From Eledone cirrhosa (taxonomy: Eukaryota): a DNA stretch of 64,000 nt. The notes below the pieces were generated by a model. The model made no database searches, was not told where the DNA came from, and saw only the letters and a program-made list of their open reading frames with translations. The first letter of the stretch is position 1. The number at the start of each line of letters is the position of its first letter. The position numbers and the translations under genes are program-made. The DNA lies in the NCBI GenBank assembly GCA_964016885.1, contig OZ024742.1, forward strand, positions 191,642,001-191,706,000, given 5' to 3'. Below, in pieces: positions 7,518-50,782 of the stretch.

Positions 7518-7708
7518 AACAAAGGAATTGTGGTAAGGAACCAGATGGACCATAACGCACCAGAATACTCAATACTTAGGGTAGTAGAGTGGGAAATAGG
7601 AAAAAGTATGACGCCGACGGCAGAGCTCAAGCCGTTTCGACGGCTATTTCTGGTCCAGAAATAGCCGTCGAAACGGCTTGAGCTCTGCCGTCAGGGTCAT
7701 ACTTTTTC
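7518..7708. mobile_element. Fold-back insert (palindrome 7600-7708, centre 7654) with 3' half of an HHR
   Basis: Near-perfect inverted arms with 1-nt spacer; contains GAAACGGC-TTGAGCTCT-GCCGTC. Family members at 11221-11425, 12207-12370, 22866-22909, 43700-43845, 45128-45270. Confidence 0.75.
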
Positions 7709-8492
7709 ATATATATATATATATATATATATATATATGCTTTTTCCTATATATATATATATATATGCGACGAAATGTCAATGATGGTTGGCAAATCACT
7801 GACGAAGGACAAATGTTATCATATGTAACCCATGTGCAACCACGCATTATTATTCTTTCTTCTCATGTTATATATATATATATATATATATATATATATA
7901 ATATATATATAATACATTATCGGAGAAAGCTTTTTAGCGATACTCCGGCCAAATTCCAACTCACTCAACAAACATTAGGAAATAAGTGAGTATATTCCTA
8001 ATTATGCGTTCGGGGTGCTAACTAAATGTATTGTGTGGAAAATTGGCTGTATTATTTCATATGAGACATATCGAATATATCTCTTCCCAGGCGGACGTCT
8101 CGTTTCATTATAGGATTCCTACAATTTGGGTGAAATTATACCAATTTATGTAGGAGCTTGTATACGATCAACAGATATATATTCATATATATATATATAT
8201 ATATACATATATATATGTATATGTATATATACATATATATATATATGTATATATATATGTATATATATATATATATATATATATATATATATATAATATA
8301 TATATATATATATATATATATATATATATATATATATATATATATATATGTGTGTATATATATATATATATATATATATATATATATATATATATATATA
8401 TATGTATATATATATAATTAGATATATATGTATATATATATATATATATATATATATATATATATATATATAACTTTCTATTGTTCATTCTA

Positions 8493-8528
8493 TCTTTTGG
8501 TGAAGATATAATGTCCGAAACGTAAAGA
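8493..8528 (+). ncRNA. Degenerate minimal HHR motif
   Basis: TCTT-TTGGTGA-AGATATAATGTCC-GAAAC-GTA-AAGA; stem I intact, core mutated. Confidence 0.4.
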
Positions 8529-8684
8529 CACCTTTCCTCCTATACCAAGCGCTGAGCTGATACAATTATTCGTTGAACTATATTGTTTACGGTAAGTTTC
8601 TGCATATACGTACACACAGACGCACACACACAGACGCACACACACACACACAGATATATATATGTGTACATATATATATATATT

Positions 8685-8998
8685 TGCATATTCACACATA
8701 AGTTTGAATAATCCCTGATATATTTCCACTATCCAGTGAATTTCCAACCGATAAGGTATGATTTTCATGGGAATGTCTCTATTTATAAAACAAACTTTGT
8801 ATTTTATCTGATGAAAGCGTACCAATGTTTTCTTGGTACCCTTGAAACATATATAAAAAAATAAATATGGTTTTATGAATATAGTTTCCATTTATTTAAT
8901 ATCATTGAATATTTACTCCAGTATTTTGTTGAGTGCTCTAAATCAATTATAAACATTTATGTTTGTCGGACTTCCAACAAATTCAATACCACTTCTAC
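8685..8998 (+). mobile_element. PLE pLTR fragment with HHR at 8801-8862
   Basis: ATTTTAT-CTGATGA-AAGCGTACCAA-TGTTTTC-TTGGTACCCTT-GAAA-CATATATA-AAAAAAT; homologous to 53090-53321 and, inverted, to 32935-33150 and 51064-51190. Confidence 0.7.
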
Positions 8999-9038
8999 TT
9001 ATATATATATATATATATATATATATATATATATATAT

Positions 9039-9260
9039 AGACAGGGGTGAAGAAAAAATGGCTTCACTTGTGCTTTCAACAAATTTATTTTCTTCACAAA
9101 ATCCAAAAAGAATTTTTCTTAAAAAAAATTATTTTATAAATTAAGTTGTTGGTTGTTGGTTATAAAATAATTATTTTTAAGAAAAATTCTTTTTGGATTT
9201 TGTGAAGAAAATAAATTTGTTGAAAGCACAAGTGAAGCCATTTTTTCTTCCCCCCTGTCT
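9039..9260. repeat. ~220-bp fold-back/MITE-like palindrome abutting (TA)n
   Basis: AGACAGGGG...ATTATTTTATAA arm is the near-perfect reverse complement of 9160-9260; short GTT-rich spacer. Confidence 0.85.
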
Positions 9261-48092: not shown

Positions 48093-49066
48093 AGTTCTCT
48101 CTCTCTCTCTATAAATGAAAATTATAGAAAAGTTATACACATCACATTTCTTTTAATTTCCATTATTACATTTCATCAATTTTTATTTTCATGCTTGCAT
48201 TTCTTTCTAGTTTAATGTTCTCTTATTCTTATTTTGTTCATCTTTCTCATCTTCCATTTTCTTTTCTTTTTCATCTATTTCCTTTTTTTTTTCTTTTTGC
48301 TTTTCATATGAAAAATAAACTTCTTTTACTTTCCGCTTCGAGTTTTCTAGCAACAACTGTTAGTAAACTAACTAATACTCCTACAAGGTTCCTTCTAATT
48401 TTTTAACACAATTTCGTTTTTTATTATTGTTCATCTTGTAATTAATCATATTTAATAGTATACCATCTAATTTTGCCTACCTCACCGATAATAACATTCT
48501 TCATTTACAGTAATTGCTGTCACTAAAGACCATAATTCCTTTACCTTCCTCTCTTTTGGTACTGTACATTTGTTTTTGTAATTATTATTCTATTATTCCA
48601 CATTTTCATTTTCTCTTGTCGTAATTTCTCTATTTCTCTTTCTTCTTTCCCTCTTGACTCCCCCTTCTTTCTTTATATGTATATGAGAGATCGAGAGAGA
48701 GAGATAGATCGAGAGAGAGGTAGATCGAGAGAGAGAAATATAGAGTAACTTTGTAAATACACACACACACGCACACACTCACACACACACACACACACAC
48801 ACACACACACACACACACACACACACACACACACACACACACACACACACACACACACACACACACACACATATATATATATGTATATTTTTTTTTTTCA
48901 ATGTGGTCTACCCACGGTGGTAGGGTCCGTACCGTACATAGATCTCAATGTAATCTGATGGCGAGTAATACAGTGAAATACATAGATGTTATTATTGTCA
49001 TTGTTAAATTAATACCTAATATATATATATATGTGTTTGTGTGTGTATACGTGTGTGTATGTGTGT

Positions 49067-49290
49067 GTATCCTGGGTTCAATCGGGGGTAGCCACAGTAA
49101 GTAAGGTACACAATACATAGTAGAGTATATTCAATATTTAATATATAGAAATTGCTTCTAAAAGTCTAGAACAGTTGCATTCGTAGGAAATTATCATTCC
49201 TGGGAATGAAACAGTTCTAGACCTATAGAAGCAATTTATATATATATAGAGAGAGAGAAATTGCTTCTACAGGTCTATAACTGTTTCATA
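49067..49290. mobile_element. Fold-back insert related to 41141-41348
   Basis: AAATTGCTTCTA..GTCTAGAAC.GTT.CATTC / GAATGAAACAGTTCTAGACCTATAGAAGCAATTT; outer part matches 41293-41342 inverted. Confidence 0.7.
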
Positions 49291-49839
49291 TATATATATA
49301 TATATAAAATCTACCACCATTAATACCATTAATATAAACAGCGGTGTTATCACGAATGTTTCAATCATGGCCAACATTTCTACAGAACGGTGAACATCGG
49401 TATTAAATAAATGTCAGAAGAAATTGGTTGCTAGGGGAATGCCACATGCCACATTATCACTATAGTAACTAGATCTAGTTGAACGAGATGAAAACAGATT
49501 GGGGCTTTATCGAACTACACAAGTAATTTCTCGATGCCTAACATGTGCTATTGTCAATAGATATAGTATAATGGGACTCAACTTCTAGCTCGACATGAAT
49601 AAAGACCCATATATGCAAAGTAACAACAAAGGGGATTAAATGTTTAGTACACAATCATTCATGTGTATATATCGTATGCGTGATTCTGTGTGTGTGATAT
49701 GTGTACATGCGTATGAGTTTACTCAAGGTTGCTTGTGAATATACGTTTGCGTAATGTGTATGTATATATATATATATATATTTCAGTTTAGTAGTCAGTT
49801 ACAAATATTAAGCTCTAAGAAAATACTTCTGAGCATTAC

Positions 49840-50603
49840 ATTACAATTTAAAAAATATATGAACAACACTACTGTGTTTTTTTTTTTGCAAAATGACAAT
49901 AATTTTTTAGCCAGATAGAAATACCTTAATTCAAGTACATATAGTCCGTCTGTATCGATCTAGAGAATATTAAATATTAAATCTATACTTACAGACGTAA
50001 AATGGCAACTGCGTGGTGCCTAGACAAGTTTAAATTTCAAAATTCAAACCTTTTCAGCAGATCGGGCGGAACTTCAAAACATAAACCTGTTGAGCTGAAT
50101 TCATAATCACATATTCACGGCTGTTATTTCTAGCGCCATGGATATGAGCCAGAATGCTGAGAAGGTCGTGTGCAAAAGCACATGTATTAGGCTTGCGACA
50201 GATCAGTCTTAAGATATTATCTTAGGAGAAGTGATTTTAATTTCTGGGTGCCTACCGAAGATCACAGAAAATTGATTACTTCACTAATAATTATTTTATA
50301 AATAGTTGTTTCGTAATTAATTAATTATTTCATTAGTATAACATCCCTTGTGAAACAAGTTTATGTTTTGAAGTTCCGCCCGATCTGCTGAAAAGGTTTG
50401 AATTTTGAAATTTAAACTTGTCTAGGCACCAGGCAGTTGCCATTTTACGTCTGTAAGTATAGATTTAATGTTTAATATTCTCTAGATCGATACAGACGGA
50501 CTATATGTACTTGAATTAAGGTATTTCTATCTGGCTAAAAAATTATTGTCATTTTGCAAATAAAAACACAGTAGTGTTGATCATATATTTTTTAAATTGT
50601 AAT
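49840..50603. mobile_element. Fold-back element with ~250-bp near-identical inverted arms (49840-50091 / 50354-50603)
   Basis: Arms match almost base for base; ~260-bp spacer; within (TA)n-bounded segment. Confidence 0.9.
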
Positions 50604-50703
50604 ATATATATATATATATATATATATATATATATAGTGGTAGAACACTGGAAGGTATTATCCGTAGTGGTAAAGCACACAGTTCATGGGATGAGTTAGG
50701 TAG

Positions 50704-50782
50704 AAGTGGTTACACAACAGTTTGTTCACCATACCGAGAACAATTGTTCTCGGTATGGTGAACTAGCTGTTGTATAACACTT
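50704..50782. mobile_element. Palindrome centred on CAA|TTG (HHR stem III of the 4238 family)
   Basis: GTTCACCATACCGAGAACAA|TTGTTCTCGGTATGGTGAAC. Confidence 0.8.

What the first reader, a model, noticed from the sequence alone, without database searches (positions are those of the whole stretch)
7600..50782. Fold-back points of the palindromic inserts cluster at or inside the ribozyme
Seen: 7600-7708 and 12207-12328 turn inside the presumed stem II loop, keeping only GAAACGGC..GCCGTC|GGGGTC. 11221-11425 turns at GGGGT(T)CC, the predicted GUC cleavage site of that family. 41157-41267 turns just 5' of CTGAAGA. ~49190 turns in stem II. 50743 turns on the CAATTG stem III palindrome. Inference: reverse transcription stops at the cleaved RNA end or ribozyme structure, snaps back and copies its own cDNA, giving MITE-like hairpins of retro origin. 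Inverted pLTRs at PLE truncation points are known; a ribozyme-defined inversion point is, to my knowledge, not well described.
Basis: partly seen in the sequence, partly recalled or inferred. Interest (0 to 1): 0.85.

Follow-up and report, generated by a model that had tools for sequence, protein, structure and literature searches.

The report
Penelope hairpins record capped transcription starts
The short DNA hairpins are head-to-head pairs of Penelope retrotransposon copies whose turning points pile up at one base per family, often with an extra G, which likely marks the capped start of the element's RNA rather than a ribozyme stop, so each hairpin likely comes from two separately primed reverse transcripts joined end to end.

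Summary
All six palindromes are real, and fold points cluster genome-wide. They belong to at least four Penelope-like (PLE) families. Family A has full-length Hydra-clade parents and a complete U3-A8 hammerhead. 5' ends pile up at one family-specific A. That A lies in loop II (A, C), at the stem I edge (B, D), or 80 nt upstream of the core (family G, extra-G test only). In 3'-anchored samples 160 of 267 arm ends lie within 10 nt of it; 4 lie within 2 nt of the cleavage site. Ends there often carry an extra non-reference G, the LINE-1 cap signature, and family B has a TATA box at -29. One arm usually ends at a short 3' site and the other at a longer 'tail' site. Either arm can be the longer one at its 5' end, which snap-back cannot explain. 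Best model: two target-primed cDNAs run off a capped transcription start and are end-joined. A minor class, including 11324, starts at the cleavage site. No RNA data were available. The scan noted a similar hairpin in another genome.

The parts
7518..7653 (-). Family A tail arm: 5' end at +4 from the inferred start, 3' end at the tail site, abutting (TA)n
7653..7712 (+). Family A tail-less arm: 5' end at +2, 3' end at the short site, abutting (TA)n; 1-nt overlap with the mate
11224..11322 (-). Family C tail arm starting at about the hammerhead cleavage site
11321..11560 (+). Family C long arm starting at the cleavage site and running past the tail into 5'UTR and the decayed ORF start (end not mapped); old copy, arms about 82% alike
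12207..12267 (-). Family A tail-less arm, reaching 2 nt 5' of the inferred start
12268..12369 (+). Family A arm with part of the tail; inferred +1 A at 12270, G12 at 12288, predicted cleavage after 12310
41145..41212 (-). Family B tail-less arm, 5' end at about +2
41213..41348 (+). Family B tail arm with canonical hammerhead core from 41215
49070..49196 (-). Family B-type (older subfamily) tail arm, 5' end in the catalytic core
49197..49237 (+). Family B-type tail-less arm, 5' end at the stem II 5' strand
50637..50748 (-). Family D tail arm, joined to its mate through the 10-bp stem III palindrome (50739-50748)
50739..50780 (+). Family D tail-less arm
45130..45269 (-). Single family A tail arm, 5' end at the inferred start, joined directly to (TA)n
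43691..43845 (.). Asymmetric family C pair: tail arm (-) starting 3' of the cleavage site, tail-less arm (+) starting near the inferred start
22868..22909 (-). Single family A tail-less arm
4237..4400 (-). Longer family D arm with a complete hammerhead (about 4268-4306); 5' end not mapped
8728..8870 (+). Family G pLTR: extra-G site at 8728, hammerhead C3 at 8808 (80 nt apart); control family
4942..5078 (.).

Best explanation
Each hairpin is a head-to-head pair of 5'-short sense copies of a Penelope-like element, likely made when the element's enzyme nicks both strands of a (TA)n site, primes two cDNAs at two internal sites just downstream of the promoter, runs both off the likely capped 5' end of the RNA, and host end-joining then likely ligates them. 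Shown: arm orientation; two fixed 3' ends (about +61 and +139 in family A); 5' pile-up at one A per family; an extra G before that A; junctions with 0-7 nt overlaps or short inserts; full-length parents. Inferred: that the A is a Pol II start and the G copies the cap; that the arms are primed independently; the repair pathway. The promoter overlaps or abuts the hammerhead in families A-D, which is why folds look ribozyme-defined. Two minor classes: run-off at the ribozyme-cleaved end of read-through RNA, and joining through the palindromic stem III/loop II sequences.
For: (1) Ends within 10 nt of +1 versus within 2 nt of cleavage: A 77 v 1 of 119, B 34 v 0 of 51, C 30 v 3 of 49, D 19 v 0 of 48. 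(2) Extra G at (TA)n-joined ends, tallied by hand. A, first 100 of 376: G-A 42, G-C 10, G-G 2, G-T 2 before the +2 base, against C-A 4 and plain +2 starts 25. B, all 50: 20/4/4/2, against the reference C-A 3. C, all 86: 25/8/5/1, against C-A 5 and C-C 5. G, all 31: G directly before +1 in 13, reference C-A 1, CC-A 5. D, first 100 of 117: G-A 11 v reference C-A 7. Host control: after an 8-nt AT repeat, G-T outnumbers G-C 826:104 in 600 kb of random DNA, but junctions show G-C 22 v G-T 5 (pooled p=5e-17). (3) LINE-1 full-length 5' junctions carry an extra G from the cap (PMC11702581, passages). (4) Family B has a TATA box at -29 and at about -30 to -32 in four other B-type copies read by eye. 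(5) The tail-less arm reaches 3 nt or more further 5' in 18 of 40 unbiased pairs and the tail arm in 14 of 40. (6) Mate 3' ends are fixed: 41 of 49 at +61 in A. (7) In vitro, the anole PLE protein nicks and extends both strands, starts at two internal sites flanking the tail, and does not need ribozyme cleavage (PMC11167929, parts 1-2 of 4 read).
Against: No RNA 5'-end data. The plain G:C ratio at -1 (42:4) is close to the host background of 7:1, so the case rests on the G-C/G-T control and on G frequency. Family H showed no extra G at its presumed start (0 of 19). In two-base inserts between two +1 ends the orientation bias was modest: G at -1 19 ends v C 7, p=0.03; both-G 5 v both-C 0 of 50 listed of 98. 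About 4 of 19 cleavage-site ends also had an extra G, so a cap-independent terminal C addition is not excluded. Family D ends are scattered (17 of 48 more than 10 nt upstream). Some pairs carry the tail on both arms (L016, L017, L030 among 30; 11324), and these are compatible with snap-back. Alignment artefacts blur end calls by several bases, and some of the 18 pairs rest on walks stopped early by mutations (e.g. L102, L205, L360, L364, L367). About 13 clean cases remain.
Confidence: 0.75

Rival explanations
1. One reading: reverse transcription stops at the ribozyme-cleaved end or at ribozyme structure, then snaps back and copies its own cDNA.
For: A local peak at the exact cleavage site among (TA)n-joined family-A ends: 19 starts at 0 v 6, 6, 1 at +1, +2, +3 (p=4e-5; about 56 distinct junctions in the first 100 rows). 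11324, L142, L144, L319 and L374 start there. Pairs with a tail on both arms exist. Self-priming was proposed for palindromic PLE junctions (PMC3846280, passages).
Against: The cleavage-site window is about 9 times less used than the +1 window (reverse-strand counts 120 v 1053, different anchors). The main site falls on different ribozyme parts and 80 nt outside it in family G. A tail-less arm longer than the tail arm cannot be a copy of it. A fixed second 3' end is unexplained.
Confidence: 0.1
2. The +1 site is a discrete but uncapped RNA end (processing, decay stop, splice-acceptor end or a strong reverse-transcriptase stop). The G is a cap-independent terminal addition, and the two arms are still primed independently.
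For: Some cleavage-site ends also have an extra G. Family H lacks the G. Family A has a branch-point-like motif just upstream of +1 (seen), and in D. virilis Penelope an intron end maps to the 5' end of helix I (PMC4209133).
Against: +1 is an A after pyrimidines in five families, with a TATA box at -29 to -32 in B-type copies. The G sits exactly one base 5' of that A even when the A itself is misread. A splice acceptor would leave upstream exon sequence, not (TA)n or the mate arm.
Confidence: 0.1
3. The hairpins are a fixed non-autonomous unit (MITE- or TRIM-like) amplified as such, or arise after insertion by palindrome-driven deletion between inverted pLTRs.
For: Many copies join at the same intrinsic palindrome (family D, nearly all of the query-biased set). 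The 7600 junction recurs in several loci.
Against: In unbiased sets junctions are highly diverse (overlaps 0-14 nt, inserts 1-27 nt), and only 2 of 30 family-D insertions join at the palindrome. Deletion would not add a G at one fixed base. Single arms joined to (TA)n show the same 5' end.
Confidence: 0.05

Closest known systems
Hydra clade C-terminal EN+ Penelope-like elements (Craig et al. 2021, PMC8557442, section 11 and passages read)
   Same: Single ORF with RT then endonuclease, DKT, CxCx5C linker, CxxC and CxH motifs, pLTR hammerhead, (TA)n targets, tandem arrays, inverted 5'-truncated copy, tail at one end.
   Different: Unit 3.5 kb (described ones generally under 3 kb), RWR for RWK, U3-A8 core with a 31-33 nt loop II, tail about 78 nt rather than 30-40. 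That paper ascribes the tail to endonuclease resolution and does not map inversion points in the passages read.
Anolis Poseidon PAc in vitro mechanism (Frangieh et al. 2024, PMC11167929, parts 1-2 of 4 read)
   Same: Both strands nicked and extended, predicted dimer, two internal initiation sites bounding the tail, AT-rich target, ribozyme cleavage not required.
   Different: It leaves the joining step open and found no RNA-seq reads ending at the cleavage site. Here the genomic junctions show where both cDNAs end, an extra G, and a minor cleavage-site class.
Self-priming (antisense template) model for PLE inverted pLTRs (Arkhipova et al. 2013, PMC3846280, passages read)
   Same: Head-to-head inverted pLTRs with palindromic junctions, optional tail, TATA/Inr in the pLTR.
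   Different: The junction signature here points to a capped sense template and two primers, not self-priming.
LINE-1 twin priming and cap-derived extra G (PMC11702581, PMC13526784, passages read)
   Same: Second target end primes a second cDNA, ends are joined by NHEJ/MMEJ, and an extra G appears at full-length 5' ends.
   Different: In L1 the two cDNAs cover adjacent, mostly non-overlapping RNA segments. Here both cover the same segment and both run to the 5' end, giving a palindrome.
Minimal type I hammerheads of metazoan PLEs, including the U3-A8 variant (Cervera and De la Pena 2014, PMC4209133, parts 1-2 of 4 read)
   Same: Type I topology, palindromic loop 3, G10.1-C11.1 pair, U3-A8 covariation, opposite-strand motif pairs noted.
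   Different: In families A and C the inferred transcription start lies inside loop II, so the 5' copy of the ribozyme would be incomplete in the RNA.

Membership tests
EN+ Penelope-like element (family A) | Single ORF with RT and C-terminal GIY-YIG-type endonuclease | tested here: met
   717-aa ORF with RDD catalytic motif and a C-terminal IY..YIG motif. 2049 homologs of about 700 aa; the top hit bears PF01541. Pfam gave 0 families for the query itself.
EN+ Penelope-like element (family A) | pLTRs, tandem arrays, inverted 5' copy, optional tail | tested here: met
   3531-bp tandem units with an inverted arm and two alternative 3' ends
Hydra clade | RWK, DKT, CxCx5C linker, CxxC and CxH, no CCHH, (TA)n targets | tested here: met
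   Read: RWR (one change), DKT, CNCPDRSIC, CNLC, CKH; (TA)n flanks throughout
Hydra clade | Phylogenetic placement with reference Hydra elements | not tested
   No reference sequences were on hand
PLE (families B, C, D, G) | Linked RT-EN ORF | tested here: inconclusive
   C: window 11321-11560 aligns into the start of the family A ORF. B, D, G: ORFs not sought; assigned from hammerhead, tail and structure only.
Type I hammerhead ribozyme (family A) | Conserved core and three helices | tested here: met
   The lowest-energy fold is the three-way junction, z=-0.04, so not more stable than shuffles. 92.5% of cells paired in 6 copies, U3-A8 in 5 of 6, no compensatory changes. Position 7 is G, C, A or T. 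Rfam listed no hammerhead among the 150 shown of 235 weak hits.
Type I hammerhead ribozyme (families B, D, G) | Conserved core and three helices | tested here: inconclusive
   Core motifs are present. Folding recovers stem I (B, D) or stems I and II (G), not the full junction.
Type I hammerhead ribozyme | Self-cleavage | not testable with these tools
   Indirect only: peak of 5' ends at the predicted site
DNA-transposon MITE | Fixed equal termini (TIRs) and a fixed interior | tested here: not met
   Two different 3' ends, variable junctions, single arms and retro parents
Pol II core promoter / capped start | Initiator A after pyrimidines, TATA near -30, capped 5' end | tested here: inconclusive
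   Pyrimidine-A in A, B, C, D, G. TATA at -29 in B, TATA-like at -29/-31 in A, none obvious in D, G. The cap is inferred from the extra G only.

The most novel reading that the evidence does not exclude
Tens of thousands of Penelope hairpins in this genome are a fossil cap-site library. That would explain the inverted pLTR and the one-sided tail and overturn antisense self-priming. In families A and C the promoter sits inside the hammerhead, so the mRNA 5' end cannot cleave off its own cap, while read-through RNA is cleaved in vivo.
Probability: 0.6. Interest if true: 0.75.

Novelty: new variant of a known kind. Interest (0 to 1): 0.6.

Why it matters
How PLEs form inverted pLTRs and a one-sided tail is named as an open problem in PMC8557442, PMC3846280 and PMC11167929. 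These junctions give single-base in vivo evidence on template strand, RNA 5' end and number of priming events, and they predict exact start sites that one CAGE or RACE experiment can test. They also give indirect in vivo evidence of PLE hammerhead cleavage, which RNA-seq did not show in the anole. Practically, such hairpins mimic MITEs and microRNA precursors (weak Rfam miRNA hits at 7603, 11272 and 41161) and will be mis-annotated. The same junction tally can map PLE promoters from an assembly alone.

Tried and rejected
Rfam: only sub-threshold miRNA-like hits on the hairpins, and no hammerhead in the 150 rows shown. Searching family A for the canonical core found 15 matches, all chimeras, junction inserts or chance; the real core is U3-A8. 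Pfam found nothing on the ORF. No RNA holder listed. Contigs of four runs of unknown kind laid on 7450-7800 showed the family at high depth with many loose ends at 7653 but cannot show RNA ends. Family H extra-G test was negative. A search for a systematic sequence difference between tail and tail-less arms found none: 55 of 82 pairs identical at the five bases tested, a G>C variant on the tail arm only in 4 pairs of a query-biased set. Two palindrome scans timed out, and the third was swamped by two satellites. One search had an offset error and a mis-registered structure. One fold (L260) used wrong coordinates and is ignored. Attributing the misread first base to m6Am is not supported: a preprint (10.1101/648345, passages) reports no misincorporation at internal m6A or Am, so the cause is left open. 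No full-length 5' half of the family C hammerhead was found, and a script tally of cores and promoters was not done, so those points rest on six aligned copies and by-eye reading. Literature searches showed no paper linking PLE inversion points to a cap or start site. Evgen'ev and Arkhipova 2005, Schostak 2008 and Arkhipova 2017 were not read, nor any supplements (e.g. Fig. S2 of PMC11167929), and these may bear on novelty.
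Full report
Observation. The six inverted repeats are present as described. The window lies on contig 3 of a 3.0-Gb, (TA)n-rich genome. Self-comparison groups the sites into families: A (7600, 12207; also 45130, 22868), its sister C (11221, 43691), B (41157, older subfamily at 49141) and D (50701, 4237). Other hammerhead-bearing families (E, F, G, H) are also in the window.

Parents. Longer family-A copies carry the missing 5' half of the hammerhead. A protein search led to tandem arrays with a unit of about 3531 bp. 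The 717-aa ORF has RT motifs, a C-terminal GIY-YIG-like domain and the Hydra-clade marks DKT, CxCx5C, CxxC and CxH, with RWR for RWK (against PMC8557442 section 11). The core is the U3-A8 variant described for Schistosoma PLEs (PMC4209133). It folds as a three-way junction, though not more stably than shuffles. In six copies 92.5% of cells pair, with no compensatory change, and position 7 is free.

Anatomy. Each hairpin is two sense copies head to head, each ending 3' in (TA)n. One arm usually ends at a short site and the other at a longer 'tail' site. In 3'-anchored samples a mate was found for 49 of 70 (A), 21 of 30 (B), 22 of 27 (C; 3 of 30 loci were A-type and set aside) and 18 of 30 (D), and 41 of 49 A mates ended at +61. 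Full-length arrays follow the same rule in either orientation.

Where the 5' ends fall. I numbered from one family-specific A. Ends within 10 nt of it versus within 2 nt of the predicted cleavage site were 77 v 1 of 119 (A), 34 v 0 of 51 (B), 30 v 3 of 49 (C) and 19 v 0 of 48 (D). In 600 kb of evenly spaced DNA plus the window the same pile-up appears. One exact 20-mer marking family-A arms with a non-T before that A has 12,121 matches; some are a subfamily variant or point mutations. The A lies 45 nt 3' of U3, inside loop II, in A. In C it lies at the same distance from G12. In B and D it lies 6 and 8 nt 5' of C3, and in G 80 nt 5' of C3. It therefore does not track any ribozyme landmark.

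The extra G. Where an arm joins (TA)n directly, added bases can be read (hand tallies of tool listings). Family A, first 100 of 376: G-A 42, G-C 10, G-G 2, G-T 2 before the +2 base, C-A 4, plain +2 start 25, G before +2 7, others 8. Family B, all 50: 20, 4, 4, 2, with the reference C-A only 3 and plain +2 12. Family C, all 86: 25, 8, 5, 1, with C-A 5, C-C 5 and plain +2 23. Family G, all 31: G directly before +1 in 13. Family D is weaker, 11 v 7 reference in the first 100 of 117. Family H showed none in 19. The host repeat itself favours G over C 7:1, so that ratio alone proves little. But host G-T outnumbers G-C 826:104, whereas junctions give G-C 22 v G-T 5 (p=5e-17). The first base is misread in 25-36% of G-bearing ends, and its cause is unknown. 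An extra G at full-length 5' junctions is the cap signature of LINE-1 (PMC11702581, passages). Family B has a TATA box at -29, conserved at about -30 to -32 across variable spacers (by eye). PLE promoters are known to lie in the pLTR (PMC8557442). I infer that the A is the capped Pol II start.

Snap-back versus two primers. A snap-back copy of the tail cDNA can never reach further 5' than the tail arm, and a copy of the tail-less cDNA cannot contain the tail. The tail-less arm reached 3 nt or more further in 18 of 40 unbiased family-A pairs, the tail arm in 14, and 8 were level (8 of 90 pairs dropped for gaps over 30 nt or failed walks; about 5 of the 18 are doubtful). L007, L008 and L021 pair a tail-less arm of several hundred to about 1,400 nt with a short tail arm. 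Junctions show overlaps of 1-14 nt, blunt joins or short inserts, as expected of end-joining (inference). The extra G occurs on either arm type (e.g. L202 and L221 tail-less; L225 and L368 tail). This fits the anole PLE protein, which nicks and extends both strands from two internal sites bounding the tail and does not need ribozyme cleavage (PMC11167929). It argues against the self-priming, antisense-template proposal (PMC3846280). Pairs with a tail on both arms exist (3 of 30; 11324) and do not discriminate.

What the ribozyme does contribute. Among (TA)n-joined family-A ends near the cleavage site, 19 start exactly at it against 6, 6 and 1 at the next three bases (p=4e-5; about 56 distinct junctions; 7 more are ambiguous). 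This window is used about nine times less than the start window (120 v 1053). The 11324 insertion is of this class: its right arm starts at the cleavage site and runs into the decayed ORF start. It is atypical for its family (3 of 30 even in a query-biased set). The palindromic stem III gives a ready microhomology, which explains 50743, but only 2 of 30 unbiased family-D insertions join there. In A and C an RNA starting at +1 would lack the 5' half of the hammerhead and would not cleave in cis; only read-through RNA would (inference, untested).

Novelty. Inverted 5' copies, tails and palindromic junctions are known PLE features. Eight searches of the open library showed no paper tying the inversion point to a capped start, or using an extra G in PLEs. 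Key subscription papers and all supplements were unseen. An earlier scan note on another genome (e1-9995956) called a similar hairpin an ordinary PLE by-product, which agrees on identity but gave no mechanism in the lines shown. No RNA run was listed, so the cap and promoter remain inferred.

Verdict. This is a new variant of a known kind, with a specific and cheaply testable mechanism. Interest 0.6.

Noticed in passing
L034, L040, L041, L033, L037, L108, L140, L179, L256: Arms of different PLE families are joined head to head or in line at their 5' ends (e.g. family A with F or H, D with E), suggesting the two cDNAs can come from different RNAs or that the enzyme jumps templates. Part of this set was selected by the search pattern.
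   Followed up: no
families D, E, F (L293, L294, L047, L088; window 5010-5030, 5150-5204): Upstream regions share an NRF1-like GC palindrome and, in E and F, a YY1-like motif near the 5' pile-up (motif names recalled), consistent with TATA-less promoters.
   Followed up: no
families A, B, C, D: Inferred start-to-cleavage distance is nearly constant (41, 45, 41, 38 nt) although stem II length differs greatly.
   Followed up: no
L238:2255-4607: The reading frame is open for 67 codons upstream of the first ATG, beginning in hammerhead loop 3 and running through the tail, in most full-length copies.
   Followed up: no
window 22747-22844: Family G hairpin turns about 5 nt 3' of its predicted cleavage site and is flanked by a family A arm.
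   Followed up: partly
window 46867-48098, 49837-50606, 53775-54218, 9040-9259: Elements with long terminal inverted repeats (465, 255 and about 170 bp) and an AT-rich hairpin, unrelated to the PLE families; probably DNA-transposon MITEs.
   Followed up: no
window 15157-15432, 17064-17224, 24223-24385, 27041-27254, 31369-31809, 33611-33782, 35572-35815, 38294-38606, 40749-40950, 47377-47540, 55493-55600, 58127-58999: A high-copy interspersed repeat (about 12 copies, SINE-like), with an inverted pair at 31373-31785.
   Followed up: no
window 53962-54032 (-): Rfam tRNA hit at 31.7 bits (gathering 29) inside the 53775-54218 repeat.
   Followed up: no
L090 and L098: Satellite arrays (about 138-276 bp and 40 bp units) with internal palindromes.
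   Followed up: no
G000:C1:118475602-118477741 and C1:181172046-181173135: Family B tail motif recurs at about 1.06-kb spacing, suggesting a short non-autonomous tandem derivative.
   Followed up: no
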